DNA of 55,304 bases from Balneolaceae bacterium (GTDB lineage Bacteria > Bacteroidota > Rhodothermia > Balneolales > Balneolaceae): the NCBI GenBank assembly GCA_016937115.1, contig JAFGWN010000186.1, positions 1-55,304 of the forward strand. The letters run 5' to 3'. Below, piece after piece: positions 11,383 to 40,346 of this stretch; positions within the stretch are counted from its first letter, which is position 1; every line of letters begins with the position of its first letter. A model generated the notes under the pieces. The model was given only the letters and a program-made list of their open reading frames with translations. It was not told the DNA's origin and did no database searches. The translations under genes and the position numbers were made by a program.

Positions 11383-11424
11383 TTCACCAAACGGTAAAAT
11401 TAATTTAAAACGAACATTTTTTTG

Positions 11425-20096: not shown

Positions 20097-20597
20097 ATGA
20101 AAACAAAGCTTACAATAATTTCCGTATTTATCTTGGTTTTAATTTTTAGCGTGGCGCCGATGGCGCAGGCGCAAAGTGAAGATGTCTCTTCCAACCTGGA
20201 AGTGTATAGAATTACTATGGTCAACGGGGAGGAAGTAGTAGAGCAGGTTACGACTATTTCACCCGGAGATACACTTGAGTATCGATTGACCTATACCAAT
20301 AACTTGTCCGACGCCATTTCTGATTTGCAGCCGATTCTTCCTATTCCACAAGGGGTACAATATCTGGAAAATACAGCAATACCCGAACTTGAAGAAGCCA
20401 GCCTGGATGCAGAGGGGAATACTTTTCAATCTTTACCCATTCAGCGAGAAGAAACACTTGAAAGCGGTCTGGTGGTAGAGCGTGAAGTGCCAGCCCGTGA
20501 GTATCGTCGCCTGCGATGGAGGGTTCCTGCCCTTGAATCACAGGCGTCGGTTATGCTAAGGGCACGCGTATGGGTTATAAACAGATCCAACCTGTAG
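20097..20597 (+). CDS. Small secreted single DUF11/CARDB-like Ig-fold protein
   Basis: 166 aa with signal peptide ...APMAQAQ. It has one DUF11-type core (PGDTLEYRLTYTNNLSDAISDLQPILPIPQGVQYLENTA ... LRWRVPALESQASVMLRARVWV). The ORF ends directly after the strand that internal domains of the neighbouring genes follow with two more strands. Confidence 0.7.
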   Translation: MKTKLTIISVFILVLIFSVAPMAQAQSEDVSSNLEVYRITMVNGEEVVEQVTTISPGDTLEYRLTYTNNLSDAISDLQPILPIPQGVQYLENTAIPELEEASLDAEGNTFQSLPIQREETLESGLVVEREVPAREYRRLRWRVPALESQASVMLRARVWVINRSNL

Positions 20598-20739: not shown

Positions 20740-23382
20740 ATGGAAAAACAAATGACCACAATTACACGTACGTTGTGTGGCAAATTGTTTGGATTTTTCA
20801 CCCTTCTTATGGTGGTGGGGCTAACATTTATGCTGGCACCGAATAGTGCTCTGGCACAAACTGTCCCGCAAGCCGGTGAAGAAATCGAAAACCAGGCAAA
20901 TGCTACATATACGGATAATAATGGGAATCCAAGGACTGCACAGTCAAACACGGTAACAACCGTAGTTCAGCAAGTGGCAGCGGTAACCATTACCAATGGG
21001 GTAACTAAAAATGTTAGTCCCGGCGGATATGTAGACTTCAGCCATACCATTACCAATAATGGTAACGGTAACGACACTTTTGCCTTAGTTGCTACACCAA
21101 CGTCGGCAAATTTCACCTTTACAGATATAAAAATTTATCCCGATCAGGGAGGTGGAGTACCAGATCTTAATAACGAAATTACAGGTTCAACACCTACCAT
21201 AGGTGCAGGGCAAACATACAATATCGTTGTACGGGCTACGGTGCCGAGTTCTGCAGTAGACGGGGAATCTGAATCTATTGATATTACAGCTACCAGTGAC
21301 TTTGACACAGCTGAGTCAGCATCAACCGACCCGGATGATGTAGCTCAGGTAGAAGAAGATGCAGTGATCACGGTTACCAAAGATTACCTCGATAGCGGAG
21401 GCAATGTAACGACCGGGGGCGATGTAGGAGAAACGGTAACGGTACGCTTTAGTATCAGTAACACCGGTAACGCCGATGCTACCAATCTTTCAGTTACTGA
21501 TCCGCTGCCCACGGGGTTTGTTTATCAGCCCGGAACAGCCGTTTACCAAAGTGCAAGCCGTACGGATACCGACGGCGACAGTGACGGCTATAAATACAAT
21601 GCAACCAATCAGACCATCACGCTTACATCAGGAACCCTTGCCTCGGGTGCAACTGCGTCTTTAACCTTTGAGGTGGTTGTTAATACCGGTACGGAAGGCA
21701 CCACGATTTCGAACACCGGTACCTATAACCATGATGATTTGGGTACTGCGGAGACCACAAACCCGGCCCTGTTTAATGTTAATGAAAGATATGGCATTGA
21801 GACGGTGGATAATGTGGGAGCTGATGATGATGTGATTGAAGCAGGACCGGTGAATCAGGGTGCTGTTGTTGATTTCGTCAACCGGTTTGAAAATACAGGT
21901 ACGGCTTCTGATTCATACAAAATTACGCTTTCTGGGCAGAGTAACTATCCGAATGGTACAACGTTTACACTGCACCGGACAGACGGAAGCGGTACGGTAA
22001 CCAGCCAGATTACAGCAAATGGCGGTGGTGACTTTATAATAGGACCGATTGCTGAAGGTGCGCAATTCGAAGTTGTTGTACGGGCAGACTTGCCTAACAA
22101 TGCTTCAGGCGGACCATATAACTTGACGAAAACACTAACGTCTGTTAACGATCTATCCCAGTCGGCTGTTTTCACTGATCGATTAACGTCGGTTACTGCC
22201 AGTACGGTTGATGTTACGAATGATGAATCACTTGATACCAATTCGAGTGCAGCTGGTAATGGTGTCCAACCCACCGGTGAAGCCAGTGCCGTTACAACCA
22301 ATACAACAGACCCGAACACTACAACCAGCTTCACGCTGTTTATCAATAATACCAGCGGCGTGTCTGATACCTATAATCTGGCAGCAAGTACCGATAACAC
22401 CTTTGGAAGTGTCACGCTGCCTTCCGGATGGTCGGTAGAGTTCCGGAACACAGGGGGGACACCGATCACAAGTACCGGATCAATTCCTGCGGGTGGAGCG
22501 GTAGAAGTTACCGCCGTAGTTACGGTACCATCAAATGCAACTCCGGGAGCGCAAAGTATCTATTTCCGTGCACGATCGGGTGCTACGGGTGCCGCGGACG
22601 TGAAGCATGATGCTGTTAATGTTAATGCCGTTCGTAGCATAACATTGGTTAGCGACCAAGGTGACGATGTGGTGCCGGGTGGTTCTGTTACCTATACACA
22701 CACCTTAACAAATACAGGTAACGTCATTGAAAATGATTCCGGCACACCATTACAGGTGAGCCTGGCGCATACGCAGGCCAGTGGCTTCCAGTCAGTGGTA
22801 TTCCTCGATGTGAATAATGACGGCGTTATTGATGGCGGTGATACGCAGATAACCGGTGCCGGTGGTACCGTTACTTTACCCGGCGGTACATTAACAAGCG
22901 GTGCTTCGGTTCAGCTTCTGGTACGCGTTAGTGCAGGGACAGGTGTTACCGACGGAACGGTTAACAATACCACACTTACCGTACAAGGTACTGGTGTAAA
23001 CACGGTTAGCAATACCGACAATACTGAGGTGGTAACCGGTAATCTTGAGATCGTAAAAACACAGTCATTGTCACCAACCGGACCTTTTAGCGGCGATAAC
23101 GCCGGCGATCCGGATTTACAGGCCGATCCCGGTGATATTATTTATTACCGCATTGTGGTAACAAATAATGGCTCGGCCCCGGTTACAAACATTACGCTTA
23201 CCGATGACGTGCCCGACTTCACAACTTATGAAGTAGCGGCAACGGTATCAGGCGACGGTTCTCCTTCGATTGACAGCCAGCCCTCTGTGGGCGGTACTGG
23301 AATCATAACGGTGAGCGTAGCCCAGCTTAATGCCGGTCAATCCTTTACCATTGAATTCGCTGTGGAAATCAACAGCAATTAA
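20740..23382 (+). CDS. Secreted six-domain DUF11/CARDB-like repeat protein (candidate fibre shaft subunit)
   Basis: 880 aa with signal peptide ...NSALAQ. It has six repeats of the pattern x-I/V-x-K..G..v.Y.h.v.N.G(N)..a....v.D.LP.G (for example FSISNTGNADATNLSVTDPLPTGFVY and YRIVVTNNGSAPVTNITLTDDVPDFTTY). Confidence 0.85.
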   Translation: MEKQMTTITRTLCGKLFGFFTLLMVVGLTFMLAPNSALAQTVPQAGEEIENQANATYTDNNGNPRTAQSNTVTTVVQQVAAVTITNGVTKNVSPGGYVDFSHTITNNGNGNDTFALVATPTSANFTFTDIKIYPDQGGGVPDLNNEITGSTPTIGAGQTYNIVVRATVPSSAVDGESESIDITATSDFDTAESASTDPDDVAQVEEDAVITVTKDYLDSGGNVTTGGDVGETVTVRFSISNTGNADATNLSVTDPLPTGFVYQPGTAVYQSASRTDTDGDSDGYKYNATNQTITLTSGTLASGATASLTFEVVVNTGTEGTTISNTGTYNHDDLGTAETTNPALFNVNERYGIETVDNVGADDDVIEAGPVNQGAVVDFVNRFENTGTASDSYKITLSGQSNYPNGTTFTLHRTDGSGTVTSQITANGGGDFIIGPIAEGAQFEVVVRADLPNNASGGPYNLTKTLTSVNDLSQSAVFTDRLTSVTASTVDVTNDESLDTNSSAAGNGVQPTGEASAVTTNTTDPNTTTSFTLFINNTSGVSDTYNLAASTDNTFGSVTLPSGWSVEFRNTGGTPITSTGSIPAGGAVEVTAVVTVPSNATPGAQSIYFRARSGATGAADVKHDAVNVNAVRSITLVSDQGDDVVPGGSVTYTHTLTNTGNVIENDSGTPLQVSLAHTQASGFQSVVFLDVNNDGVIDGGDTQITGAGGTVTLPGGTLTSGASVQLLVRVSAGTGVTDGTVNNTTLTVQGTGVNTVSNTDNTEVVTGNLEIVKTQSLSPTGPFSGDNAGDPDLQADPGDIIYYRIVVTNNGSAPVTNITLTDDVPDFTTYEVAATVSGDGSPSIDSQPSVGGTGIITVSVAQLNAGQSFTIEFAVEINSN

Positions 23383-23406
23383 TTCTCAATCTATTAGCAA
23401 TGTGTG

Positions 23407-23435
23407 GAGAGAAGGGTGAAGCCTTCTCTCTTCTT
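23407..23435 (+). terminator. Intercistronic hairpin (possible partial terminator/attenuator)
   Basis: GAGAGAAGG-GTGAAG-CCTTCTCTC, a 9-bp stem, is followed by TTCTTA. It lies 25 nt after the 880-aa gene stop and 29 nt before the next ATG. Confidence 0.3.
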
Positions 23436-23463
23436 ATAAAAAATAATCATCCGGCTTTTTTTG

Positions 23464-26400
23464 ATGCGTAACCTGTTTTCACATATCTTATTTGTTGCAC
23501 TTGTACTGATTGCCTTGCCGGCTGTTGGTCAACAAGTGCCGCGGGCAGGTACGTCTATTGATAACCAGGCCAGTGGGTATCATTTTTTCCCTTCCTATTC
23601 CGATACCGTCTTTAAAAACTCCAATACCGTAAGTCTCATCGTACAGGAGGCAGAAAACATTAACCTTGTTCCCAATCACCGTGAGAAAATACGTATTGGG
23701 CAGGTAACAAGGTTTACCCATACGCTTTCAAATACCGGCAATGTACCGACAACCGTTACCATTACGGCCGAAAATATAATGGGTGATGATTTTGATTTGG
23801 ATAACATAATTTTATCTACGGTTGAAGAGGCATCAAAAATGGTATCCAATATCGGAATGGCTGGAGCATCGCAGGCTGCTTCTAAAGAAATAACGGTAGA
23901 ACTGGAACCCGGAGAGGTATTTGATTTCACTATTTCCCTGGTTGTGCCCAATGAGGCAAAGGCCCGTGATTTGGGTAAGGTTAAAATAGAAGCAAAGACC
24001 AGCAGCGGGAAACTTATTCTCAGTAATACGGATATTCTGGAAGTGCTTGAAGGACCCCGGGTAGAAGTGGTAAAGAAAGCAGCAGAAAGTACCGGAAAGC
24101 AGGGAGGAGAAATTACCTATCTTATTACCGGCAGTAACGAAGGGGATCAAACAGCCCGAACCTTTAATATCCAGGTTAATAATGTTCCCTTGCAAAAGGT
24201 AATTTTACGTGATCCGATTCCAGCTAATACGAGTTTTTTGCGGACATTAAGCACCGAAGGCGGGATGACGCTGTATCATACAATAGATGATCCTGAATTC
24301 ACCTATTCGACTACACTGCCGGATGATTTATCCCGGGTTGACGAATTTGCCGTAGCATACGATTCCATCGCACCGGGCCAGAAATTTGAGGCGCAGTTTG
24401 TGGTGGCCATTAATGAAAATGCTGCCGGACTTATTAAGAATATTGCCCAGGTTGACTATCGCGACCCTATTGATGACGAGCAGCAAAGTACAACGGCAGA
24501 AACAAACCTCGTGGAAGAGGTTTTACCTGAATATGAAGCAGAACTCGATTATTATACCGATGGTAACTACAAGACCGTTAGCCGCGCTGCCCGAATTTCT
24601 GGCCCGTTATTTTTACAAGCCAATGCTGCTGCCTGCAATGCGAGTAGTGCCGTCAAAGATACCACCGTTATCACTTTCAAATCGCGGGATACGGGAGACA
24701 TAGAAGAACTAACCGGGATAGAGACAGGGCATAATACGGGCTACTTTCGGGTTATGCCCAATGCACCACTGCGCGATGCGGCAAAGTTTACGGTACGCAA
24801 AAGAAATAACATTATAGAAACCGTAGGCGATGATGTTATCACAGCTACATTGCCGGCCTGCAGTGAAAACCAGGAGGCGGTAACGACACAGATTCACATT
24901 TCTCCATACGGCGTTATTTTTAACAGCGAAGATGGCGAGCCCGTTGCAAATACATCTATTACTCTTATTGATGTTACCGGAGAAGGTAACGGCGGTAATC
25001 CAGGGGCCCCGGCTACTGTATATAATGAGCAGGGCACCGAAAAGATTGAAAATACCCAGGAGACGGGAGAAGACGGAGAGTTTGAGTTTCCTTATGTGCA
25101 GCCCAGCACCTATCGTATTGAGGTAGAGCCTCCAACCGGTTGGCGTTTTGCTTCCATTGTTGAACCGCAGGATCTGCCCGGTAACCGGAAAGTTGACGAG
25201 TGGGCTTCGTACGGAAGGGAATTCGGGGTTACTGAACCCGGGCCGGTTGGAGTTGACGTACCGGTAGATCCCGCAACGGATGGCATTCTATTCATCGAAA
25301 AAACGGTATCAACTTCCGGGGCAGAAGTCGGTGATTTCGTCACCTATCAAATTACAGTGGCAAACAACGCATCTACGGTTGTTTCTGATGTTCGTGTTGA
25401 GGATACCTTGCCGTTTGGCTTCCGTTACGAAAAAGGAACCGCACGGCGGGATGAAAAACCCATTGCGGATCCCGATGGAGGGAAGGGACCATCACTCAGT
25501 TTTATGCTGGGCGATATTCAGGGCAATAGCTCGGTTACGCTTACCTACCGTGTACTGCTTGGCACCGGCGCGTTAAACGGCGATGGTACGAACCGCGCTG
25601 TAGCCGTAAGTAATGAAGGACTACAAATCACAAGTAACGAAGCCCAGAGTAAAGTTGAGGTACGCGGTGGCGTATTCACCGATAAAGGGTACATAATCGG
25701 TAAAGTATTTGCCGATGTAAACGAAAATGATGTGCAGGATCCCGGAGAGCCCGGCGTTCCCGGCGTTCGTCTTTATCTCGAAAATGGTTCATTCGTTATT
25801 ACCGATAGTGAAGGTAAATATACGTTTTATGGCATCAATCCCAATAAACACACGATAAAAGTTGACAACTATTCGTTGCCACAGGGCAGCCGGCTTGGTG
25901 TGCTCGATAACCGGCATGCCGGAGACCCTTCCACCCGGTTTGTCGATTTGAAAAATGGGGAACTGCACCGTGCCGATTTTGCTATTTGTGACCTCACGGA
26001 AGCGGCAAAACGTGAAATAGAAGACCGCCGCAAACAATTTAATATGGTAGTCAGCGACGAAGTGGGAACAACGCTTGAGCGAAATTTTTCGACCGATGCT
26101 CAAGACCCAACACGTGCTGTTCGCCGGGCGCAGGCAAGCGGCGTGGTTGACGGCGTCAAGCTCCCGGGTTTTCGTAAGCAAAAAAATGGTAGCTCCGCAT
26201 TGGCCCAATCTTCATCTGCTATCCTCAATGATACGGCAGCAGTTGAGCAGATAACACTTGAGGATGCTATGCTGGGTGAAAAGGCAGAAATTGGGTTTAT
26301 CGGTCTGCAGGATAACGATACCCTGCAAGCTGCACAGACAAGAATTTGGATAAAGGGCCGAAGCAGTACAGCACTTTCTCTTAGCGTTAATGGGGAGAAA

Positions 26401-29400
26401 ATTGGAGAAGATCGCATTAGTAAACGAAGCAAGCTCACGACACAAAAACTCCAGGCGCAAGAATATATCGGTGTTAATCTTACACCCGGTAAAAATACAC
26501 TTACCCTTACGGCAATCGATCCGTTTGGTAACGAGCGGGGACGGAAGCAGATAATGGTTTTTGCTCCCGGCCATATCCACAAAATAAAGCTCACAACGCC
26601 TGTTAATGACGTGCCGGCCGATGGTATTTCAACAGCCGTCGTAAAAGTTTGGTTGCAAGATAAAGAAGGCGTTGCCGTCAATGCAAAAACACCGGTTACC
26701 CTTGATGTCTCAATCGGTGAATGGTTGGTGAAAGATCTGGATTCGTCAACACCCGGTACCCAAACCTATGTTACCGGTGGGGAAGCAGAATTTGAGCTGC
26801 AATCGACTATCGAACCACAGGATGCTGATGTTCGCGTGTCAATCGGGGTGATGGAAGCAGAAACCGTGGTAAGTTTCTTGCCCGATCTTCGTCCCCTTAT
26901 TGCCGCAGGTATCATAGAAGGGACAATTCGATTAAACGAAGGTGCCAGTATTGTTCCGGCCCGCAGCGCCGACGGTTTTGAGCGGGAGCTAAAGTCGCTT
27001 TCATACAGCACCGATGATTATACGGCTGATGCCCGTGCGGCCTTTTTCCTGAAAGGGAAGATTAAAGGAAATATGCTGTTGACGGCGGGTTTTGATTCTG
27101 AAAAAGATGATGACCGCCTGTTTCGTGATATTCAGCCCGATGAGTTTTACCCTGTCTATGGTGAATCATCGGTAAAGGGATACGATGCACAGTCAACCGG
27201 ACGGCTGTACGTGCGGGTTGATCACAAGAAGACCTATGCTCTTTATGGCGATTTTGTAACGCAGGAGCGGCATCTGGCCAAAAGCCTTGGTGAATACAAC
27301 CGTACCCAGACAGGGATTAAACTGCATTACGAAAAAGACTGGGCACGTATCAATGTGTTTGGCAGCCAGGCGACTTCGTTACAGCGCATCGATGAGTTTC
27401 GGGGGCAGGGTATTTCGGGACCGTACGAACTGCAATTCGATAATATTTTGATTAACAGCGAACAGGTTGAGATCATAACGCGCGATCGCAATCAGCCATC
27501 TATTATTCTCGAACGGGAAAAACTGGTGCGTTTCCGCGATTATGTAATAGAACCGTTTACGGGCAATATTCTCTTTAAAACAGCTGTGCCGAGTGTTGAT
27601 CCAAAGCTGAATCCTGTTTTTATCCGGGTGACCTACGAAGTGGAAAGCGGGGCGGAAGATTACTTGATCGGCGGAGCTGATGGACAGATCAAGATTACGG
27701 ATTTCTTTGAAGTGGGCGGCTCATTTGTAGAAGATCGCAATCCAGAAGACAACTACCGTCTTAAAAGTATCAACTCCACATTACGACTTGGTGAAAATAC
27801 GGTATTGATTGGGGAAGCAGCCGAAAGCACGACCGAGCTTGAAGGTACTGGCCGGGGCGGACGCATTGAATTGCAGCATCGTGGCCAAATCGTCGATGGC
27901 CGTTTGTATGCCGGCCAAACCGACGAAGATTTTGTCAACCGCGCGTCTCAGCTTGGTCAGGGGCGGACCGAAGCCGGCGCACTCGGATCCATTAAACTGA
28001 CGAACTCAACTAATTTAAAAGGAGAGTTTCTATACAGCAGCAACGACACGCTGGGTACCAATACCACCGGCGGTTTGCTTAACATTCAGCAGCGTATTAC
28101 GAACGATATCCGTGCTGAAGTAGGGGTTCGTTACTCTAAGCAAAACAGATCGCAGTCGGGGATATCGGGTGATGAAGATATCACCAATAAAAATATTCGC
28201 GGTAAATTAACGGTGGGTGTTCCCAAGGTAAAAGGAGCAACTATTTATGGAGAGTACGAGCAGGATATTAATGAAAGCGACCGGAAGCTTATTGCTGTTG
28301 GCGGCGATTACCAGCTTAAAAATCGAGGTAGAATCTATGCGCGTCACGAGTTTATATCCAGTGCGCTCGGCCAGTATACGTTGAACAGTTCCACAGAACG
28401 CCAAAATACGGTTGTTGGTATTGATGCCAATTATATGCAAAACGGCCAGGTGTACAGCGAGTATCGTATGGATGATGCGTTTGACGGCCGCAATGCACAA
28501 GCGGCGATCGGGCTGCGCAATCGTTTTGAAATTCGTGAAGGGTTCGGCATCAATGCCGGGTTGGAGCGTATCTTTAGTTTAACGGGTGATCCACTGAATG
28601 AAGGGACAGCTATATCAGCCGGTGTTGACTATACTGCAAATCCGCTTTGGAAAGGCACCGCCCGGGCCGAAGCTCGTTTCAGCAATAATGGCGCCAGTTA
28701 TTTGAGCACGCTGGGCTACGGTCGAAAAATAGATCCCAACTGGACGTTTTTAGGTAAGAATATATTCAGCCTGCAAGCATCGTCAAATCCCGGAACCGCG
28801 GATCGTATCCAGCAGCGTCTGCGGTTTGGTTTTGCGTATCGTGAAACAGCTCAAAACCGCTGGGACGGGCTGGGCCGCTACGAATTAAAGTACGAAAAGA
28901 ATGGACAGTTTGGCGGGGACTATAGTCGGTTGGTTCATATTTTCTCGACTAATGTGAACTATCATCCAAGTGCCGACTGGACACACACTGGTCGTTTTGC
29001 AGCAAAAAAAGTAGCAGAATCATCAGCCGAGTTCGATTCAAAAAGTTTGACGATGCTTTTGAGTGCCCGCAGCATTCACGACATCACCCGAAAGTTAGAC
29101 GGCGGTATTAATGCAAGTATGATGACAGATGCCGGTTTTAGCAGCCAAAATTATGGCGTAGGGGTTGAGCTGGGATACATTGTACACCGTAACCTGCGTC
29201 TGGCTATCGGATTTAATGTATTTGGATTTGAAGATCGTGACCTGGCTGCATCCAGCTTTACCCGAAAAGGCGTATATCTTGGATTCAGTTACAAGTTTGA
29301 TGAGCGTCTGTTCCGCGGTCTTATGCCTGATGAAGACAAGAATGATTACCTGTATGCCACTTGCGATGAGTGTGCTGAACCGTCGACAAAGGCTGAAGCA

Positions 29401-30345
29401 CTGCCGTTACCAGACCCCGAGTTAGATTTTAAAGGATTGCAGCCGGTGATTATAGAAACGCCCGATTTTAAGGTAGCAACCCGTAAACCACTTGTCACTC
29501 TTCCAAAAGATATTCACTTTGGCTTTGATAAGAATGAGATTAGTGAAGCTTCTAAACGAATGCTCAATCTCGTGGCTCAGTTCCTGAAAGACCAGGATGC
29601 GTTTAAACTGGAAGTTACCGGCCATACCGATAGTCAGGCTTCGTACCAATATAATTTAAATTTATCCAAGCGGCGCGCAGTGTCAGTTCGTGAATACCTC
29701 GTTAGTCAAGGCGTTGATGCGAGCAAGGTAACGTTCAAGGGATGGAGTTTTGACGATTCAAAAACAGACCGGGAAGAGGATGCCATCGACCGATCCATAA
29801 ACCGCCGGGTTCAACTTAATATGGATATCCCAAACGTAAATGTTCGGTTCATCCCACAAATCAATGATCTGCAGATTGAAAAGCAGCGACTTGATGGGAT
29901 GCAGAATACGGTGTATGTATTGGATACCCGCATTGACGCCGTGCCGGATCGTATTCATTTAAACGGAACTGATTTACGTGTATCTACAAAATATATGTTG
30001 AATCGAATTGCGATGGCGCTGAAATATCATCCTGAGGAGAAAGCGACATTTAGTTTTGCAGAATCACAAGTGGAACAGCAGCAAATAGTTGCAGATTTTC
30101 TGCAACAGGCCGGCACTGATATGAATCGCATCATTATGCAGGCAGTACCGGCTTCAACAAACGAAGATACACGAGCGAAAGCAGTAGCTATCGATTACGG
30201 TGAGCATTCACAATTGATATCTGTGAAACAAACCGATGATTTAAGGTTGACCGATAACGCAAAAATTGAAATGATTTTGGATAAAATGATCGAACTGCTG
30301 AAGCTGCGCGAAGATCACTTATTGATTACTAAAAACCGTAAATGA
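23464..30345 (+). CDS. Giant outer-membrane protein: DUF11 repeats + Cna-B/SdrD-B-like + Big_1 + large beta-barrel + OmpA-like C-terminus (candidate anchor)
   Basis: ATG at 23464 (the track uses TTG at 23461), with signal peptide ...ALPAVGQ. Domain evidence is listed in the sub-features below. Confidence 0.85.
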   Translation: MRNLFSHILFVALVLIALPAVGQQVPRAGTSIDNQASGYHFFPSYSDTVFKNSNTVSLIVQEAENINLVPNHREKIRIGQVTRFTHTLSNTGNVPTTVTITAENIMGDDFDLDNIILSTVEEASKMVSNIGMAGASQAASKEITVELEPGEVFDFTISLVVPNEAKARDLGKVKIEAKTSSGKLILSNTDILEVLEGPRVEVVKKAAESTGKQGGEITYLITGSNEGDQTARTFNIQVNNVPLQKVILRDPIPANTSFLRTLSTEGGMTLYHTIDDPEFTYSTTLPDDLSRVDEFAVAYDSIAPGQKFEAQFVVAINENAAGLIKNIAQVDYRDPIDDEQQSTTAETNLVEEVLPEYEAELDYYTDGNYKTVSRAARISGPLFLQANAAACNASSAVKDTTVITFKSRDTGDIEELTGIETGHNTGYFRVMPNAPLRDAAKFTVRKRNNIIETVGDDVITATLPACSENQEAVTTQIHISPYGVIFNSEDGEPVANTSITLIDVTGEGNGGNPGAPATVYNEQGTEKIENTQETGEDGEFEFPYVQPSTYRIEVEPPTGWRFASIVEPQDLPGNRKVDEWASYGREFGVTEPGPVGVDVPVDPATDGILFIEKTVSTSGAEVGDFVTYQITVANNASTVVSDVRVEDTLPFGFRYEKGTARRDEKPIADPDGGKGPSLSFMLGDIQGNSSVTLTYRVLLGTGALNGDGTNRAVAVSNEGLQITSNEAQSKVEVRGGVFTDKGYIIGKVFADVNENDVQDPGEPGVPGVRLYLENGSFVITDSEGKYTFYGINPNKHTIKVDNYSLPQGSRLGVLDNRHAGDPSTRFVDLKNGELHRADFAICDLTEAAKREIEDRRKQFNMVVSDEVGTTLERNFSTDAQDPTRAVRRAQASGVVDGVKLPGFRKQKNGSSALAQSSSAILNDTAAVEQITLEDAMLGEKAEIGFIGLQDNDTLQAAQTRIWIKGRSSTALSLSVNGEKIGEDRISKRSKLTTQKLQAQEYIGVNLTPGKNTLTLTAIDPFGNERGRKQIMVFAPGHIHKIKLTTPVNDVPADGISTAVVKVWLQDKEGVAVNAKTPVTLDVSIGEWLVKDLDSSTPGTQTYVTGGEAEFELQSTIEPQDADVRVSIGVMEAETVVSFLPDLRPLIAAGIIEGTIRLNEGASIVPARSADGFERELKSLSYSTDDYTADARAAFFLKGKIKGNMLLTAGFDSEKDDDRLFRDIQPDEFYPVYGESSVKGYDAQSTGRLYVRVDHKKTYALYGDFVTQERHLAKSLGEYNRTQTGIKLHYEKDWARINVFGSQATSLQRIDEFRGQGISGPYELQFDNILINSEQVEIITRDRNQPSIILEREKLVRFRDYVIEPFTGNILFKTAVPSVDPKLNPVFIRVTYEVESGAEDYLIGGADGQIKITDFFEVGGSFVEDRNPEDNYRLKSINSTLRLGENTVLIGEAAESTTELEGTGRGGRIELQHRGQIVDGRLYAGQTDEDFVNRASQLGQGRTEAGALGSIKLTNSTNLKGEFLYSSNDTLGTNTTGGLLNIQQRITNDIRAEVGVRYSKQNRSQSGISGDEDITNKNIRGKLTVGVPKVKGATIYGEYEQDINESDRKLIAVGGDYQLKNRGRIYARHEFISSALGQYTLNSSTERQNTVVGIDANYMQNGQVYSEYRMDDAFDGRNAQAAIGLRNRFEIREGFGINAGLERIFSLTGDPLNEGTAISAGVDYTANPLWKGTARAEARFSNNGASYLSTLGYGRKIDPNWTFLGKNIFSLQASSNPGTADRIQQRLRFGFAYRETAQNRWDGLGRYELKYEKNGQFGGDYSRLVHIFSTNVNYHPSADWTHTGRFAAKKVAESSAEFDSKSLTMLLSARSIHDITRKLDGGINASMMTDAGFSSQNYGVGVELGYIVHRNLRLAIGFNVFGFEDRDLAASSFTRKGVYLGFSYKFDERLFRGLMPDEDKNDYLYATCDECAEPSTKAEALPLPDPELDFKGLQPVIIETPDFKVATRKPLVTLPKDIHFGFDKNEISEASKRMLNLVAQFLKDQDAFKLEVTGHTDSQASYQYNLNLSKRRAVSVREYLVSQGVDASKVTFKGWSFDDSKTDREEDAIDRSINRRVQLNMDIPNVNVRFIPQINDLQIEKQRLDGMQNTVYVLDTRIDAVPDRIHLNGTDLRVSTKYMLNRIAMALKYHPEEKATFSFAESQVEQQQIVADFLQQAGTDMNRIIMQAVPASTNEDTRAKAVAIDYGEHSQLISVKQTDDLRLTDNAKIEMILDKMIELLKLREDHLLITKNRK
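25698..25866 (+). other. SdrD-B/Cna-B-like domain inside the 2294-aa protein
   Basis: GKVFADVNENDVQDPGEPGVPGVRLYLENGSFVITDSEGKYTFYGINPNKHTIKV matches the classic SdrD B-repeat pattern. Confidence 0.75.
26578..26880 (+). other. Big_1 (invasin/intimin-type bacterial Ig-like) domain
   Basis: KIKLTTPVNDVPADGISTAVVKVWLQDKEGVAVNAKTPVTLDVSIGEW...TYVTGGEAEFELQSTIEPQDADVRVSIGV matches the AdG-s-a-v-a-v-D-G-pv pattern of Big_1. Confidence 0.7.
26881..29310 (+). other. Predicted large (>20-strand) outer-membrane beta-barrel region with a soluble insert
   Basis: About 800 aa of short amphipathic strands ending in aromatics (IRAEVGVRYS, ATIYGEYEQ, LIAVGGDYQL, RIYARHEFI, QVYSEYRMD, AISAGVDYTA, QQRLRFGFAYRE, GLGRYELKYEK, GVGVELGYIV, LRLAIGFNVFGF), with a terminal GVYLGFSYKF. 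A non-amphipathic insert (GPYELQFDNILINSEQVEIITRD...NILFKTAVPS) follows the first few strands. Confidence 0.55.
29505..29825 (+). other. OmpA_C-like peptidoglycan-binding domain
   Basis: IHFGFDKNEISEASKRMLNLVAQFLKD...LEVTGHTDSQASYQYNLNLSKRRAVSVREYLVSQGV...INRRVQL shows the canonical OmpA/MotB C-terminal motifs (TD...N..LS..RA..V). A second, degenerate copy follows at about 29950-30160. Confidence 0.85.
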
Positions 30346-33300
30346 GATTAGAAAGCAAAACATATTGCCTGTTTTTAAGCTTCTTGCTGGGAATGATATT
30401 CCTGAATGTTGCCAGCATTATCGCCCAGCCAGCCGGGTACGATTATTACAAGCAGATTACCATCCAGGCTTCGCAGGTGCCTTCTACGCAAACCAATTTC
30501 CCGGTATTAATTAGTATTACAGATCCGGATCTGGCGGCTAATGTGCAGAATACCAATGGCTATGATATTATTTTTTCTTCGGATACTAACGGCAATAATA
30601 TACTGAATCACCAGATTGAGAGCTACAATGCAGCAACCGGAACGTTGGTGGCATGGGTAGGGGTACCGAGCCTGAGCGGAAGCAGCAATACATCGATCTA
30701 CATGTTTTATGGAAACTCAAGTGTCTCTGCCAATCCTTCAACAACGGCTACCTGGAGCAGCGAATATACCAGTGTGTACCATCTAAATAATTTTGCAGAT
30801 GGTACTGCCACCGGAAATAACGGTACGAATAATGGTTCCATCAATGCAGCAGGTAAAATTGGAAGTGCCCGGCAATTTGACGGTAGCAATGATTATATAC
30901 AATTAAGCCAGAATTTGGCGCAGGTGTTAGCCGGAAATGGTACGGTATCAGCATGGATAAAAACAAGTCAGGTTGGTAGCAATACTATTTGGGAGGCTCC
31001 GGGTTTAACAGGTATTGAAGAGAGCGGGGGCGGCAACGATATTTTCTATGGATTTATTGATGGTTCGGGTCGGGTAGGAGCAGCAGCCGGGAACGGGACT
31101 GCAGCTAAAAGCTCGAATGCGTTGAATAATAATCAGTGGCACCATGTGGTGTTTACCCGGAATGCGTCAAGTGGGCAGATACTCACATACGTTAATGGAA
31201 TAATTCGTGGAAATGTAACCTCAGAAACAGGGAATAAAACGAATGCCTTTAACAGTATTGGCCGAATTGAAGATACCGGAGGATCTCCTGAATATTACCA
31301 GGGAGTAATTGATGAGTTTCGGGTTTCTAATCAGATTTTCTCTCAAAATCGCATTCAAACAGAATACAATAACCAAAATAACCCCTCTTCCTTTTATTCA
31401 GTTGGCAGTCAGCAGTCTGTTGATGATGTGGCGCCCGCTGCCCCGCAAAATGTTACGGCAACAGCAGTGGCCGGCGGTGATATCGAAATTTCATTTGATG
31501 ATGTGGATGAGACCGGCAGCGGCGTTACTTCTTATTCTGTAAAACGCTCAACCTTGCAAGGCGGACCTTATAGTCAGGTTAGTACCGTTACCGATAATGA
31601 AAGTGCAACTTACAACTACAGCGACAATACTGCTTCCAACGGGACTACCTATTACTATGTGGTTACGGCGGTGGATGCAGCCGGCAATGAAAGTAATACT
31701 TCTGCTGAAGTTTCGGCCACGGCTGATGGTACCGCACCAACAGTCGAGACTGTCACAGTTAATGGCCAGAACTTGCAAATTGATTACAGCGAGATACTTA
31801 ATAATGGTTCCGTTCCAGCGCCAAGTGATTTTAATATACAGGTGAATGGCAGTTCCCGAACAGTAACCAATGTTGCTATAAACGGCGATAAGGTAGATCT
31901 CACACTCAGTCCGTCGGTTGTACAGGGAGATAATGTGTCCGGAAGCTACACGGCAGGAAGTAATCCTATTGAAGACCAGGCAGGAAATGATGCAGCCAAC
32001 TTAAGCGGTCCTGTAACCAATAATACAAGTGACAGTACACCCCCCAATGCTCCGCAAAATATGACGGCAACAGCCATCATGGGTGGTGATATAGCGATAT
32101 CCTTCGATGATGTGGACGAAGTTTCCGGTACGGGGGTAAATTCGTATTCAGTGAAGCGTTCTGCAAACCCGGGCGGCCCGTACAGTCAGGTTGGAACCGT
32201 CGCAGATGATGAGAGCACCAGTTACACGTATACCGACAATACCGTTTCGGATGGCACTACCTATTATTATGTGGTAACAGCCATTGATGCCGCCACGAAT
32301 GAAAGCAGTAATTCATCCGAAGTCTCGGCTACCGCCGATGGTACGGGCCCAACGTTAGAAACAGCCACAGTTAATAGCACCATCCTGCAGCTTGATTATG
32401 ACGAGCAATTAAACACCGGTTCTGTCCCCGTGGCAGGTGCCTACGCAGTACAGGTGAATAGCAGTTCCCAAAGCATTTCAAACGTTGGCATTAATGGTGA
32501 CAAGGTGAATATTACACTGGTTTCCGGGGTAAGTCCGGGAGACAACATCACGATAAGTTATACGGCCGGAGTAAATCCAGTTGAAGATATCGTTGGAAAT
32601 CCGGCGGCGAATTTCTCTAATCAAACCGTAATAAATAATTCCGATAATACCCCCCCAATACTTAACAGTATTACTGTTAACAGCAGTAGTTTAAAGTTGG
32701 ATTATAACGAAACCTTAGATTTAGGTTCGGTACCGGCTGTCGGTGATTATACAGTTTGGGTGAATGGCAATCCGCGGACAATTACAAATGTACAGCTCAA
32801 TAATATCCGGGTAAATCTGACGCTCAGCCCGGCCGTAGTGAGCGGTGATAATGTTCAGGTCGATTACACGGCGGGTGCCAATCCGGTACAGGATGCGGCC
32901 GGAAATAACGTGGCGAATTTTACCAATCAAACCGCTGCCAATAATACCTTCAGCAATTCCGGCTTTGGTCCGGATCCCTGCCCGATCGTCAATGGCCAGG
33001 ATGCTGCATGGGCATGTTTTGATGGCATCAACGGGGGGACCACCATGTCGGCTTTGGTAGGTAACCTTGAGATTGCCACGGTTGATGCCGTTGGACAGAC
33101 AACTTTTGCGCCCAATGCGTTGCAGCAGTGGGCCAGCGGTGTCTTCTCGGGTGATCAGTACAATGGCCCGCAGGCCAATCCCATCGGTGCCAGTGGCAAC
33201 GCTTCCTCATTTGATATTACCATCCCATCGGGTGTACCATCGGATGCCATCATCTTTGCGCTGAACCGGCTGCGGCCTTCGTCCGGGAATACGAGCTACA

Positions 33301-39300: not shown

Positions 39301-40346
39301 ATGACAACGGAATCGGAACCGGCGGCACGGCTAATGATGTGGTTAAGAATGGCGGAGAGCCGGGCATCAATGCCACGGTGGTAAAAGCGTTGAGCGGCAG
39401 CGGAGCTCCCCTGGATCAGACGACGGCCTCGGCCGGTGGAAATTATACGTTATATGTAGCTAAATCTCAGGTTCCTTCCGGCGGAACGGTCATAATAAGG
39501 GAAACAAACAAAGCCAACTTTATAACCATAGGCGGAAGCGCGGGAACGACAGGGGGGACCTATAGTAAACCCAATGATGAAGTGAGTTTTACCAATACAG
39601 TAGGTGCCATTTATACCGGCGTCAACTTTGCAGATGTGGAACAAAGCCGCCTGCTGACTGATGGCGAACAGAATATTCAGCCGGGCGGAACAGCCACCTT
39701 CCAGCACCAGTTCCAGGCAAGAACGGCGGGAGCTGTCACCTTTACAACATCTACGGCAACCGATCCGGCCGGCAACACCATTCCGGTAATCTTATACCGG
39801 GATATAAACTGTAACGGAGCGGTCGATTCGGGTGAGCCGGTACTTGACGGCTCGGGGCCTGTGTCTGTTACTACGGACCAAACTGTGTGCCTGGTTCTAA
39901 AAGTGACCATCCCCCTGGGAACAAGTAATGGCGTTATAAGCACTACAACAGTAGCAGCGTCGATGGATTTTGCCAATACCAACCCGGTTATACAGCAATC
40001 GCTCTCCCGCACCGATGTGGTGAATGTTACCGAAACAAACGGTGGACTGTCACTCATCAAAGCCGTTGACAAAGCGACAGCAGAGCCTGGTGAAGTGCTG
40101 ACCTACACCATCACCTACGAAAACAACGGAAGTGATCCCATCAACACGCTTGAAATTGCAGACAACGTGCCAGCATTTACCACTTTTAGTTCAGCCAGCT
40201 GCGGTGTGCTGCCCAACAACCTTACCAACTGTACGATTAATGCGCCGGCGGCCGGGCAAACAGGAGCCATAACGTGGACGTTTACAGGCACGATGGCTCC
40301 GGGAACCTCCGGCGCGGTTACCTATCAAGTAACGATCCAGGATTAA
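30342..40346 (+). CDS. Giant 3334-aa secreted multidomain surface protein (candidate adhesive tip)
   Basis: The ATG overlaps the upstream TGA (ATGA at 30342-30345). It has signal peptide ...NVASIIAQ. Domain evidence is listed in the sub-features below. The C-terminus ends in a DUF11-type domain, and I recognise no T9SS, LPXTG, PEP-CTERM or RTX-type signal. Confidence 0.85.
   Translation: [3334 protein letters not shown]
30444..31400 (+). other. DUF2341 + LamG/concanavalin-like (Laminin_G_3) module
   Basis: [24 protein letters not shown]...GYDIIFSSD...[24 protein letters not shown]...SIYMFYGN fits DUF2341. YHLNN...[29 protein letters not shown]...GTVSAWIKT...WHHVVFTR...LTYVNG...[13 protein letters not shown] fits the LamG_3 pattern. 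Confidence 0.75.
31422..32950 (+). repeat. Tandem coding repeat: (FN3 + SwmB-type repeat) x2 plus one extra SwmB-type repeat
   Basis: The unit is about 610 nt. [26 protein letters not shown]...[31 protein letters not shown] + [27 protein letters not shown]...[25 protein letters not shown] is repeated as [26 protein letters not shown]...[31 protein letters not shown] + ...[22 protein letters not shown]. A third SwmB-type unit then ends ...[22 protein letters not shown]. Confidence 0.8.
33575..34090 (+). other. GEVED-type domain
   Basis: It begins [11 protein letters not shown]..., contains acidic DGDGNG / [15 protein letters not shown] stretches and ends [14 protein letters not shown], the eponymous GEVED motif. 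Confidence 0.65.
34090..34850 (+). other. Two complete DUF11 domains
   Basis: [51 protein letters not shown]...[31 protein letters not shown], followed by [51 protein letters not shown]...[28 protein letters not shown]. Confidence 0.85.
34843..35520 (+). other. Uncharacterised ~225-aa domain, copy 1 ([13 protein letters not shown] motif)
   Basis: [32 protein letters not shown]...[14 protein letters not shown]...[10 protein letters not shown]...[17 protein letters not shown]...SVSFNPC. It is paralogous to 35881-36545. Confidence 0.6.
35881..36545 (+). other. Uncharacterised ~225-aa domain, copy 2 ([13 protein letters not shown] motif)
   Basis: [32 protein letters not shown]...[14 protein letters not shown]...[10 protein letters not shown]...[17 protein letters not shown]...DIDFRQC. 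It is collinear with copy 1. Confidence 0.6.
37780..38500 (+). other. Right-handed parallel beta-helix repeats (NosD/pectate-lyase-like)
   Basis: There are repeated ~22-aa turns: [54 protein letters not shown] and [10 protein letters not shown]. Confidence 0.7.

What the first reader, a model, noticed from the sequence alone, without database searches (positions are those of the whole stretch)
20860..23649. Orphan F-G beta-hairpins at mature N-termini versus strand-deficient C-terminal domains: possible head-to-tail strand complementation
Complete domains (shown for two of the giant protein's DUF11 domains) follow the order A (L-x-I-x-K), B (G..v.Y.I.V.N.G), C (A.nv.V.D.LP.G), D, E (s..l.f.v.V), F (G..I.N.A.v) and G (SN..s..v.V). 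The internal domains of the 880-aa protein show the same E, F, G order. The F and G strands with a trailing N-rich motif are the last strands of the related CARDB fold. The 880-aa protein is permuted relative to this pattern. Directly after signal cleavage it begins with an orphan F-G unit, TVPQAGEEIENQANATYTD...TAQSNTVTTVVQQ (20860-20976). Its last domain (23038-23379) ends at strand E (QSFTIEFAVEINSN*). The 2294-aa protein likewise starts with an orphan F-G unit, QVPRAGTSIDNQASGYHFF...FKNSNTVSLIVQE (23533-23649). It shares the Q-x-VP-x-AG-x-x-I-x-NQA...SNTV...VQ pattern with the 880-aa protein. Donor-strand complementation is the assembly principle of chaperone-usher pili, and strand exchange is that of type V pili. 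Here a two-strand N-terminal donor and a C-terminal acceptor would allow the 880-aa subunit to polymerise head-to-tail and to dock onto the N-terminus of the barrel-anchored protein.
Basis: inference. Interest (0 to 1): 0.85.

Follow-up and report, generated by a model that had tools for sequence, protein, structure and literature searches.

The report
Split isopeptide domain joins fibre proteins
Four neighbouring genes encode surface-fibre proteins in which one Ig-like domain is cut in two and its halves sit on different proteins, so the proteins can probably snap together end to end and lock covalently without any assembly enzyme; the same gene kit occurs in hundreds of Gram-negative species, and I found no description of it.

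Summary
The mature 880-aa and 2294-aa proteins each start with an orphan F-G hairpin. The 880-aa protein ends exactly after strand E of a DUF11 (now Pfam 'CLIPPER') domain. Both features hold in all 82-83 orthologues examined, from Balneolaceae to Proteobacteria, Acidobacteria and Verrucomicrobia.

New points:
- CLIPPER domains carry an autocatalytic Lys-Asn isopeptide bond with a catalytic Asp (PDB 9IFR). Here that triad is split. The Asn sits on the hairpin (83/83). The Lys and Asp sit on the C-terminal half-domain (82/82 each).
- The 3334-aa giant also ends in a Lys/Asp acceptor half-domain and has no hairpin.
- The 166-aa protein is an acceptor-like domain without the Lys or the Asp.
- The gene order small protein, donor+acceptor, donor-only anchor (ending in a roughly 800-aa barrel-like module), acceptor-only 'tip' recurs across phyla.

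Best reading: trans hairpin insertion followed by spontaneous isopeptide locking builds a tip-shaft-anchor fibre. This would be a natural DogTag/DogCatcher. The trans logic is strong. Covalency, homopolymerisation and the export route are inferred. No multimer model or coordinates could be obtained. I rate it a new variant of a known kind, of high interest.

The parts
20097..20597 (+). 166-aa secreted protein. It is a single acceptor-like CLIPPER-related domain (strands A-E) that ends at strand E and lacks the isopeptide Lys and the catalytic Asp ('pseudo-catcher'). Proposed role: non-covalent receptor for the hairpin, as chaperone or cap.
   Evidence: A member lies upstream of the 880-aa-type gene in essentially all 81 loci. 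Its family profile aligns end to end with the acceptor profile: hhalign probability 95.6%, E 4e-9, 115 columns. The Lys column is not conserved and the Asp column is a conserved Leu (tLPIP). There is no Pfam family. The family has 465 clusters at E<=1e-10, nearly all 140-240 aa.
20740..23382 (+). 880-aa donor+acceptor subunit ('shaft'). It has a signal peptide, an N-terminal F-G hairpin, five complete Ig-like domains and a C-terminal A-E half-domain.
   Evidence: Homologues are all 838-960 aa and span several phyla. At least 528 species-level genome hits were found.
20860..20976 (+). Donor hairpin of the 880-aa protein (residues 41-79; strands F and G). The reactive-type Asn51 is encoded at 20890-20892.
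   Evidence: This is the most conserved stretch of the family. The Asn is present in 83/83. Model pLDDT is 90-95 with strands at 48-58 and 64-76. It aligns to strands F-G of the internal CLIPPER domain, N51 with N325.
21352..21795 (+). Internal contiguous CLIPPER domain of the 880-aa protein (residues 205-352) with its own complete triad K214/D254/N325. It serves as the in-protein reference for the split domain.
   Evidence: Pfam DUF11 hit at 228-333. K214, D254 and N325 are invariant or nearly so in A1. It was the template of the hhalign test.
23038..23379 (+). Acceptor half-domain of the 880-aa protein (residues 767-880; strands A-E only). Lys773 is encoded at 23056-23058 and Asp822 at 23203-23205. 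The stop codon follows strand E.
   Evidence: Lys 82/82 and Asp 82/82; 0-4 residues follow the last model column. Local HMM positions 16-85 of 122. Fused to the mature N-terminus it is predicted to fold as one beta-sandwich (pTM 0.70) that Foldseek aligns over its full length with 9IFR and the BcpA pilin.
23461..30345 (+). 2294-aa donor-only anchor. It has an N-terminal hairpin, an Ig-like stalk (DUF11, SdrD_B, Big_1), a conserved barrel-like module of about 800 aa and an OmpA peptidoglycan-binding domain.
   Evidence: It is the third gene of the cassette in all phyla.
23533..23649 (+). Donor hairpin of the anchor (residues 25-63). The Asn35 of IDNQA is encoded at 23563-23565.
   Evidence: It matches the hairpin HMM at residues 26-62 (E 1.2e-4 against the N-termini set). 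Nearly all anchors carry it directly after the signal peptide. The Asn is present in 50/54.
26908..29316 (+). Conserved C-terminal module of the anchor (residues 1150-1952), a presumed large outer-membrane beta-barrel ending ...GVYLGFSYKFDE.
   Evidence: phmmer E 1e-136 to 1e-293 in all anchors. Outside Balneolaceae the protein ends within 0-27 residues of the module's end. About 25-30 alternating-hydrophobicity segments. No Pfam match and no PDB sequence relative. The fold itself was not determined.
29518..29784 (+). OmpA-like peptidoglycan-binding domain of the anchor (residues 2020-2108). It is an addition seen in the Balneolaceae anchors, which carry roughly 280-435 residues after the barrel module.
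   Evidence: Pfam OmpA E 8e-19. Anchors outside Balneolaceae have at most 27 residues after the barrel module.
30342..40346 (+). 3334-aa acceptor-only giant ('tip' adhesin). It contains DUF2341, LamG, SWM repeats, GEVED, four complete DUF11 domains, a beta-helix and SdrD_B. It has no N-terminal hairpin.
   Evidence: The fourth gene of the cassette is an acceptor-only protein of 870-3474 aa in 26 further loci.
40041..40343 (+). Acceptor half-domain at the C-terminus of the giant (residues 3234-3334; GGLSLIKAVD...AVTYQVTIQD*). Lys3240 is encoded at 40059-40061. The catalytic-type Asp lies in EIADNVP.
   Evidence: It ends at strand E. The Lys motif is present in 27/27 tip proteins. The Asp motif is present in 27/27, one of them read by eye.

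Best explanation
The four genes encode a modular surface fibre whose subunits are joined by a naturally split CLIPPER (DUF11, CnaA-like) domain.

Each acceptor is a C-terminal half-domain (strands A-E) that carries the isopeptide Lys on strand A and the catalytic Asp on strand C. Each donor is a two-strand F-G hairpin at the mature N-terminus that carries the partner Asn on strand F. When the hairpin of one protein inserts into the half-domain of another, a complete Ig-like sandwich is restored. The Lys, Asp and Asn then lie as they do in an intact CLIPPER domain, so a spontaneous intermolecular Lys-Asn isopeptide bond should lock the joint. No sortase or other ligase is needed.

The valencies give the polarity of the chain. 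The 3334-aa adhesin has an acceptor only and is distal. It receives the hairpin of the 880-aa protein, of which there may be one copy or several head to tail. The C-terminal acceptor of the 880-aa protein receives the hairpin of the 2294-aa protein. That protein ends the chain and anchors it through a large outer-membrane barrel-like module and an OmpA domain. The 166-aa protein is an acceptor look-alike without Lys or Asp. It most likely holds a hairpin non-covalently, either as a periplasmic chaperone that prevents premature ligation or as a cap.

Shown: the split, its conservation, the partition of the triad and the gene logic. Inferred: trans insertion, covalent bond formation, the order of assembly, the copy number of the 880-aa protein, the role of the small protein and the export route.
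For: (1) The split is real and conserved.

(2) DUF11/CLIPPER domains form an autocatalytic Lys(strand A)-Asn(strand F) isopeptide with a catalytic Asp (PDB 9IFR; Costa et al., PMC12617251). maps these residues onto the L-x-I-x-K, V-x-D-x-LP and G-x-x-I-x-N-x-A motifs.

(3) The triad is partitioned and conserved:
- Asn on the hairpin: 83/83 shaft proteins and 50/54 anchors.
- Lys 82/82 and Asp 82/82 on shaft acceptors.
- Lys 27/27 and Asp 27/27 on tip acceptors.
The internal contiguous domain of the same protein keeps K214/D254/N325.

(4) Donor-only anchors and acceptor-only tips sit in the same operon and cannot be completed in cis. The order small protein, donor+acceptor, donor-only, acceptor-only recurs in Balneolaceae, Eisenbacteria, Beta- and Gammaproteobacteria, Verrucomicrobia, Acidobacteria, Desulfuromonadales and Thermodesulfovibrionales.

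(5) Joining the C-terminus directly to the mature N-terminus gives an E-F loop only 2 residues different in length from that of an intact domain. The fused sequence is predicted, even without an alignment, as one compact sandwich (pTM 0.70). Foldseek aligns it over its full length to 9IFR (TM 0.59 normalised to the target) and to the isopeptide pilin BcpA (TM 0.58).

(6) Feasibility: the engineered R2Tag/R2Catcher (DogTag/DogCatcher) split of RrgA domain 4 has the same topology. It has a C-terminal beta-hairpin with the Asn and a catcher with the Lys and the acid, and the unevolved halves already react on mixing (PMC8878318).

(7) The giant adhesin has no other recognisable anchoring or sorting signal.

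(8) The small protein is a global homologue of the acceptor that has lost exactly the two catalytic positions.
Against: - No multimer model and no coordinates were available. I could not see where the hairpin sits in the full-length AlphaFold2 monomer. Its pLDDT of 90-95 is compatible with cis docking.
- The fused-domain model used a single sequence and is of medium confidence (pLDDT 71.8). Its Foldseek TM-scores are moderate (0.48-0.59).
- No experimental datum exists for any member. Covalency is inferred from residue conservation alone.
- 4 of 54 anchors lack the Asn.
- About half of the proteobacterial loci have no tip gene next to the anchor, so the four-part scheme is not universal.
- How folded or unfolded subunits cross the outer membrane is unknown. 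The barrel assignment rests on sequence patterns only.
- The mirror-tree analysis was weak and confounded. It gave no support for pairing of the shaft hairpin with the tip acceptor (partial r -0.17 in 22 loci).
Confidence: 0.68

Rival explanations
1. Complementation in cis. The N-terminal hairpin of the 880-aa protein folds back into its own C-terminal half-domain, giving a covalently closed ring, or it packs onto domain 1. The tip acceptor then pairs directly with the anchor hairpin, and the 880-aa protein is a separate, self-closed component.
For: AlphaFold2 gives the hairpin and the C-terminal half-domain very high confidence in the monomer (pLDDT 90-97) and a fairly high pTM (0.53) for a six-module chain. 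That fits self-complementation. The shaft hairpin co-varies with the shaft's own acceptor (partial r 0.55-0.58) and not with the tip acceptor. All valencies are also satisfied in this scheme.
Against: AlphaFold monomers routinely self-complement donor strands that act in trans. Most inter-domain linkers are only about 5 residues, as in rod-like tandem Ig arrays, so closing a ring over six modules would be strained. The hairpin-to-domain-1 junction (VVQQVAAVTIT) looks like an ordinary G-strand to A-strand junction between consecutive domains. Domain 1 already has a full strand set. The co-variation is confounded because both elements lie in one protein: the acceptor also correlates with domain 1 at 0.64. 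Trans pairing must exist in the system anyway for the donor-only and acceptor-only proteins.
Confidence: 0.14
2. The hairpin is mainly a recognition or targeting element, bound non-covalently by the small protein or by the anchor's barrel for export, much as a TPS domain works in two-partner secretion. The truncated C-terminal domains are stable five-strand variants, and no intermolecular isopeptide forms.
For: The hairpin lies directly after the signal peptide and is far more conserved than any other part: mean pairwise identity 0.71 against 0.41-0.52. That fits recognition by a conserved machine. A dedicated small protein resembles a hairpin receptor but lacks the catalytic residues. No covalent bond has been demonstrated.
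Against: Targeting alone does not explain why the Lys and Asp are invariant on half-domains that lack their Asn. It does not explain why the hairpin is collinear with strands F-G, including the Asn. It does not explain why tip proteins without a hairpin end in the same kind of half-domain. Targeting and ligation are not mutually exclusive.
Confidence: 0.12
3. Artefact. The apparent permutation comes from misplaced domain boundaries, from wrong start or stop calls, or from chance resemblance within a repetitive protein.
For: DUF11 proteins are repetitive and boundary calls by eye are error-prone. Pfam envelopes for the terminal domains are partial.
Against: The same termini occur in 82-83 orthologues across phyla, with 0-4 residues after strand E and the hairpin 2-4 residues after an AXA cleavage site. 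Profile-profile E-values are 3e-16 and 4e-9. The internal CLIPPER domain is contiguous from A to G.
Confidence: 0.02

Closest known systems
DogTag/DogCatcher (R2Tag/R2Catcher), SnoopTag/SnoopCatcher and SpyTag/SpyCatcher: engineered splits of Gram-positive adhesin isopeptide domains
   Same: DogTag/DogCatcher has the same split topology. A C-terminal two-strand beta-hairpin carries the reactive Asn. The rest of the domain carries the reactive Lys and the catalytic acid. The halves reconstitute and ligate spontaneously (PMC8878318).
   Different: Those pairs are man-made, from CnaB-type domains with a catalytic Glu. Here the split is natural and lies in a CnaA-like CLIPPER domain with a catalytic Asp. 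The halves sit at opposite termini of separately encoded proteins, and the arrangement is conserved across phyla as an assembly device.
BsaA of Clostridium perfringens (TasA family): 'donor-strand exchange and lock'
   Same: An N-terminal segment of one subunit inserts into the sheet of the next, and an autocatalytic Asn-Lys isopeptide (N35-K74, catalysed by E56) locks it. No sortase is involved (PMC11580942).
   Different: BsaA has a different fold family (TasA/camelysin) and a single donor strand. It forms a homopolymer in a monoderm, depends on SipW, and has no outer-membrane anchor, no separate tip and no pseudo-acceptor protein.
Sulfolobus acidocaldarius threads (Saci_0406)
   Same: Head-to-tail donor-strand complementation combined with intermolecular isopeptide bonds, with no known ligase (PMC9715654).
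   Different: The threads are archaeal. The bond is non-canonical, between an N-terminal alpha-amine and an Asn, from subunit n to n+2. The subunit has a single domain and is unrelated to CLIPPER.
Chaperone-usher pili (Fim, Pap, Csu, CupE)
   Same: An incomplete Ig-like fold is completed by an N-terminal donor from the next subunit. The chain is polar, with a tip adhesin, a shaft and a terminator or anchor at an outer-membrane barrel. A dedicated small periplasmic partner is encoded in the operon.
   Different: CU pili use one donor strand, not a hairpin, and the link is non-covalent. The acceptor groove is in the same domain as the donor, not at the opposite end of a six-module protein. No PapD-like chaperone or usher family match was found here. 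The small protein here resembles an acceptor, whereas the CU chaperone donates a strand.
Sortase-assembled Gram-positive pili (SpaA, BcpA, RrgB)
   Same: They are covalent fibres of multi-domain Ig-like pilins that contain CnaA/CnaB isopeptide domains. BcpA is among the best structural matches of the reconstituted domain.
   Different: In those pili the inter-subunit bond is made by a sortase between an LPXTG threonine and a pilin-motif lysine, and the autocatalytic isopeptides are intramolecular. None of the four proteins here has an LPXTG signal at its C-terminus, and the autocatalytic bond itself would be intermolecular.
Single-chain CLIPPER/DUF11 fibrillar adhesins (e.g. Acinetobacter silvestris B9T28_05395, PDB 9IFR)
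   Same: They share the domain family, the Lys-Asp-Asn triad, the stalk-forming role and an OmpA-type anchoring domain in a Gram-negative organism.
   Different: In those adhesins every CLIPPER domain is contiguous and its bond is intramolecular, with the adhesive tip, stalk and anchor in one polypeptide. Here the equivalent fibre is divided among three polypeptides at split CLIPPER domains.

Membership tests
CLIPPER / DUF11 (Pfam PF01345) isopeptide domain | Sequence match to the family model above the curated threshold | tested here: met
   880-aa protein 53.3 bits, 2294-aa protein 59.2 bits, against a cut-off of 24.6. The last domain of the giant scores 39.1 bits on profile positions 2-96 of 114.
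CLIPPER / DUF11 (Pfam PF01345) isopeptide domain | Lys (strand A), Asp (strand C) and Asn (strand F) triad | tested here: met
   Internal domain: K214/D254/N325 are conserved. Terminal domain: K773 and D822 lie on the C-terminal half and N51 on the N-terminal hairpin, at 82/82, 82/82 and 83/83. The aligned Asp falls at 749 by my count, against 748 in the paper.
CLIPPER / DUF11 (Pfam PF01345) isopeptide domain | All strands A-G contiguous in one polypeptide, with an intramolecular bond | tested here: not met
   For the terminal domains, strands A-E are at the C-terminus and F-G at the N-terminus of the same or another protein. These are split members of the fold, not ordinary domains.
Chaperone-usher pili | PapD-like periplasmic chaperone | tested here: not met
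   The 166-aa protein matches no Pfam family at E<=0.01. Its profile aligns with the CLIPPER acceptor half-domain instead.
Chaperone-usher pili | Usher-family outer-membrane protein | tested here: not met
   There is no usher match in the 2294-aa protein. The barrel module has no Pfam match at E<=0.1 and no PDB sequence relative at E<=10. Fold-level similarity was not tested.
Chaperone-usher pili | Single N-terminal donor strand completing the subunit's own pilin domain groove | tested here: not met
   The donor is a two-strand hairpin of about 39 residues. The acceptor lies about 700 residues away, at the other end of the protein.
Sortase-dependent pili | C-terminal LPXTG-type sorting signal | tested here: not met
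   The C-termini read ...AVEINSN*...QVTIQD* and ...VINRSNL*, with no LPXTG, hydrophobic stretch or basic tail. I did not search the window systematically for a sortase gene.
TasA/BsaA donor-strand-exchange fibres | TasA/camelysin-family subunit | tested here: not met
   No such Pfam or NCBIfam match appears in any of the four proteins. SipW was not searched for.
Type V (Bacteroidota Fim/Mfa) pili | Lipoprotein precursors processed by a protease, with strand exchange via C-terminal strands | tested here: not met
   The signal peptides carry no lipobox cysteine. The donors are N-terminal. No FimA- or Mfa-family match was found.
Type 5 (autotransporter, two-partner) and type 9 secretion cargo | Autotransporter barrel, TPS domain or T9SS C-terminal domain | tested here: not met
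   None of these families appears in the Pfam or NCBIfam scans of the four proteins. The only PorE hit is to the OmpA part.
Natural Tag/Catcher-type split isopeptide domain (how it works, not an established family) | Spontaneous covalent bond between the two halves | not testable with these tools
   This needs mixing of the purified halves with SDS-PAGE and mass spectrometry, or at least multimer modelling with coordinates.

The most novel reading that the evidence does not exclude
This would be a self-contained, enzyme-free pathway for covalent fibre assembly in diderm bacteria. Subunits exported by Sec are held by a catalytically dead 'pseudo-catcher' chaperone. They are then ligated hairpin-into-catcher, in the order tip, shaft (n copies) and anchor. 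The growing fibre is passed outward through the anchor family's own very large, unclassified barrel, which acts as both usher and terminator. It would be a new class of pilus or adhesin biogenesis, and a natural library of orthogonal hairpin/catcher ligation pairs.
Probability: 0.3. Interest if true: 0.92.

Novelty: new variant of a known kind. Interest (0 to 1): 0.8.

Why it matters
If true, Gram-negative bacteria of many phyla build covalently linked surface fibres without sortases, chaperone-usher machinery or type IV systems. They would do so by dividing one autocatalytic isopeptide domain between consecutive subunits. This matters in four ways.
- It adds a further assembly principle to the short list known for bacterial pili and adhesins.
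- It explains how giant adhesins with no recognisable anchor signal are attached to the cell.
- It gives a function to a widespread small protein family that has no Pfam family (465 clusters at 50% identity) and to an unclassified outer-membrane module of about 800 aa.
- It offers hundreds of naturally co-evolved hairpin/catcher pairs for protein-ligation technology. Until now such pairs have been obtained by splitting domains artificially.

The hypothesis is directly testable with two small recombinant fragments.

Tried and rejected
- Reading the docking site of the hairpin from the full-length AlphaFold2 model. The tool returns no coordinates. Foldseek of the whole model gave only generic tandem-Ig hits such as PrgB, titin and alpha-2-macroglobulins.
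- A read-through 'fusion' of the 880-aa C-terminus with the anchor N-terminus. The two genes share a reading frame, but three stop codons lie between them. I used a direct concatenation of the 880-aa protein's own termini instead. It was accepted, but it ran as a single sequence only.
- Direct PDB sequence searches with the half-domain and with a complete giant-protein domain. These gave only weak or spurious hits. The 9IFR mapping came from the anchor's DUF11 domain.
- Classifying the barrel module. It has no Pfam match and no PDB relative even with a 19-sequence profile. Only a crude count of amphipathic strands was possible.
- Deciding between a 1:1:1 chain and a homopolymer from evolutionary rates and from partial Mantel tests. 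The results were suggestive at best and confounded by shared phylogeny and shared polypeptide, so I did not use them as evidence.
- Literature searches for a prior description, using DUF11 or CLIPPER with donor strand, intermolecular isopeptide, split, sortase-independent and fibrillar adhesin. None was found. The haloarchaeal tafi hit concerns DUF1102, not DUF11.
- Promoter and terminator scans. These were uninformative.
- The weak 'choice-of-anchor T' NCBIfam hit (22.7 bits against a cut-off of 70). I dismissed it.

Full report
**What is in the window**

Four co-directional genes form a compact cluster:
- a 166-aa protein (20097-20597);
- an 880-aa protein (20740-23382);
- a 2294-aa protein (23461-30345);
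- a 3334-aa protein (30342-40346), whose start overlaps the previous stop by 4 nt.

All four have Sec-type signal peptides without a lipobox. Pfam finds DUF11 and related Ig-like families in the three large proteins. It finds an OmpA domain near the end of the 2294-aa protein and nothing in the 166-aa protein. The closest named relative of the 880-aa protein is from Fodinibius salinus (52% identity). The window is therefore from a Balneolaceae bacterium.

**Checking the observation**

I built an HMM from four complete DUF11 domains of the giant protein. It places the C-terminal domain of the 880-aa protein on positions 16-85 of 122, so strands F and G are missing. It places the N-terminal hairpin on positions 82-115.

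In a 74-sequence alignment of full-length homologues (A1) the hairpin is the most conserved segment of the protein. Its consensus is APPAGTxIGNQASATYxDxxGxxRTVTSNxVxTxVQQVA. It begins 2-4 residues after the predicted AXA cleavage site. Every homologue terminates 0-4 residues after strand E.

I joined the family profile of the C-terminal half-domain to that of the mature N-terminus. The joined profile aligns collinearly with the contiguous internal DUF11 domain of the same proteins (residues 205-352). The hhalign probability is 98.7%, E 3e-16, over 122 columns. The alignment runs straight across the junction with a 2-residue length difference.

The AlphaFold2 model of the full protein (pLDDT 88.7) shows the hairpin, five complete beta-sandwich modules and a last module that stops after its E strand. 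The first module after the hairpin has its own full strand set.

**The key addition: the split separates an isopeptide triad**

Pfam now calls DUF11 'CLIPPER'. Costa et al. (PMC12617251) solved a CLIPPER domain (PDB 9IFR). They showed an autocatalytic intramolecular isopeptide between Lys715 on the first strand and Asn806 on the penultimate strand, with Asp748 as the presumed catalyst.

Aligning the anchor's own DUF11 domain to 9IFR maps these residues as follows:
- the Lys onto the K of the L-x-I-x-K motif;
- the Asn onto the N of G-x-x-I-x-N-x-A;
- the Asp onto V-x-D-x-LP. By my count the aligned Asp is 749, one position from the published number.

In the 880-aa family the internal contiguous domain keeps K214/D254/N325. 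In the split domain, K773 and D822 lie on the C-terminal half and N51 on the N-terminal hairpin.

Counts across the 80 fetched loci plus the window:

| Residue and location | Conservation |
|---|---|
| Lys, 880-aa-type acceptor | 82/82 |
| Asp, 880-aa-type acceptor | 82/82 |
| Asn, 880-aa-type hairpin | 83/83 |
| Asn, anchor hairpin | 50/54 |

Residues that make sense only together are thus conserved on two pieces that are about 720 residues apart or on different proteins. That is what one expects if the pieces reassemble and react.

**The other two proteins belong to the same scheme**

The 3334-aa giant has no hairpin. It ends ...GGLSLIKAVD...EIADNVP...AVTYQVTIQD*, which is an A-E half-domain with the Lys and the Asp.

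The 166-aa protein is a single domain whose family profile aligns end to end with the acceptor profile (hhalign probability 95.6%, E 4e-9, 115 columns). The Lys column is unconserved and the Asp column is a conserved Leu. It is an acceptor look-alike that cannot catalyse the bond.

**Comparative genomics**

The 80 best loci span these groups:
- Balneolaceae;
- Eisenbacteria;
- Beta- and Gammaproteobacteria (Polaromonas, Thiobacillus, Rhodoferax, Limnobacter, Moraxellaceae, Uliginosibacterium);
- Verrucomicrobia;
- Acidobacteria;
- Desulfuromonadales;
- Thermodesulfovibrionales.

My own ORF calling and HMM searches on these loci gave the same order almost everywhere:
1. a small protein of 160-260 aa;
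2. a protein of about 880 aa with donor and acceptor;
3. a protein of 1600-2400 aa with an N-terminal donor only;
4. in 26 further loci, a protein of 870-3474 aa with a C-terminal acceptor only.

An Acinetobacter nectaris contig shows the same module plus extra shaft-type paralogues.

The small protein family has 465 clusters at 50% identity with E<=1e-10 among 1.84 billion representatives. Nearly all are 140-240 aa.

The anchor proteins share a strongly conserved C-terminal module of about 800 aa (phmmer E 1e-136 to 1e-293). Outside Balneolaceae the protein ends within 0-27 residues of this module's end, on a motif like ...YLRLRFKFDE.LF. The module shows about 25-30 alternating-hydrophobicity segments. 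It has no Pfam or PDB sequence relative. I read it as a large outer-membrane barrel, but its fold was not determined.

**Why trans rather than cis**

Donor-only anchors and acceptor-only tips cannot be completed within one chain. Trans complementation must therefore operate in the system.

The valencies close in a polar chain: the tip acceptor takes the shaft hairpin, and the shaft acceptor takes the anchor hairpin. This puts the adhesive LamG, DUF2341 and beta-helix end of the giant protein farthest from the cell and the barrel and OmpA end at the envelope. Single-chain fibrillar adhesins have the same layout.

The junction between the hairpin and domain 1 looks like an ordinary G-to-A junction between consecutive domains. 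Most inter-domain linkers are about 5 residues, which argues against ring closure.

**A surrogate structural test**

I concatenated the C-terminal half-domain directly to the mature N-terminus of the 880-aa protein. The tool accepted this, and the sequence was folded without an alignment. It gave one compact sandwich: pTM 0.70, pLDDT 71.8, with the hairpin strands at pLDDT 71-89. Foldseek aligned it over its full length to the isopeptide pilin BcpA (TM 0.58) and to 9IFR (TM 0.59 normalised to the target, 152 columns). This supports the idea that the two pieces make one CLIPPER-like domain. It does not distinguish cis from trans.

**Precedents**

- The engineered R2Tag/R2Catcher (DogTag/DogCatcher) pair splits RrgA domain 4 in the same way. 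The C-terminal hairpin carries the Asn, and the catcher carries the Lys and the acid. The unevolved halves already react on mixing (PMC8878318).
- In nature, BsaA of C. perfringens uses donor-strand exchange followed by an autocatalytic N35-K74 lock (PMC11580942).
- Sulfolobus threads combine donor-strand complementation with isopeptides (PMC9715654).
- I found no paper describing a split CLIPPER domain or this gene cassette.

The defining components of chaperone-usher, sortase, type V, TasA-type, autotransporter and T9SS systems were looked for and are absent (C-termini read).

**What remains open**

- Whether the 880-aa protein polymerises or is a single spacer. Its hairpin is much more conserved (mean pairwise identity 0.71) than the anchor hairpin (0.41) or either acceptor (0.48-0.52). 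That would fit a hairpin that must suit several partners. Partial Mantel tests were weak and confounded.
- Whether the small protein is a chaperone or a cap. About half of the proteobacterial loci lack an adjacent tip gene. In those loci two donors face two acceptors only if the small protein is counted.
- How the subunits cross the outer membrane.
- Whether the bond really forms.

None of these could be settled with the tools at hand.

**Verdict**

It was incomplete, and homopolymerisation is unproven. The best-supported reading is a natural Tag/Catcher-type split isopeptide domain that assembles a tip-shaft-anchor fibre in diderm bacteria. This is a new variant of known principles, widespread, and I found no description of it.

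Noticed in passing
window 11422-15210 and 15247-19065 (+): Two tandem paralogues (1262 and 1272 aa). Each fuses an N-terminal calcineurin-like metallophosphoesterase to a C-terminal Omp85-superfamily barrel. This is an unusual architecture directly upstream of the cluster. It is not conserved next to the cassette in other phyla.
   Followed up: partly
window 6630-8144 and 8196-10949 (+): Two adjacent proteins resembling TLC/MFS-type ATP/ADP transporters. The second (917 aa) carries C-terminal HEAT repeats.
   Followed up: no
window 40274-40741 (+): A stand-alone response-regulator receiver domain with no output domain lies immediately downstream of the 3334-aa gene. It could regulate the cluster.
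   Followed up: no
window 23383-23460 and 30342-30345: The 880-aa and 2294-aa genes are in the same reading frame, 78 nt apart, with three in-frame stops between them. The 2294-aa and 3334-aa genes overlap by 4 nt, which suggests translational coupling.
   Followed up: partly
window 26908-29316 (2294-aa protein, residues 1150-1952): A module of about 800 aa is conserved in every anchor protein. It has no Pfam family and no PDB sequence relative. It shows about 25-30 amphipathic beta segments and a C-terminal aromatic motif, so it may be a very large, unclassified outer-membrane barrel.
   Followed up: partly
L001 (Acinetobacter nectaris contig) 3442-8803, minus strand: A second, divergently oriented set of two shaft-type paralogues (886 and 893 aa) and a further large DUF11/SdrD_B protein lies next to the canonical module of small protein, 901-aa protein and 2006-aa protein. 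This hints at heteropolymeric or alternative fibres.
   Followed up: partly
window 19113-19727 (-): A peptide methionine sulfoxide reductase (MsrA) gene lies between the phosphoesterase-Omp85 genes and the cluster. It is ordinary.
   Followed up: no
window 20740-23382, residues 52-116: A weak sub-threshold NCBIfam hit to 'choice-of-anchor T' (22.7 bits against a cut-off of 70) covers part of the hairpin and domain 1. It is probably general Ig-like similarity.
   Followed up: no
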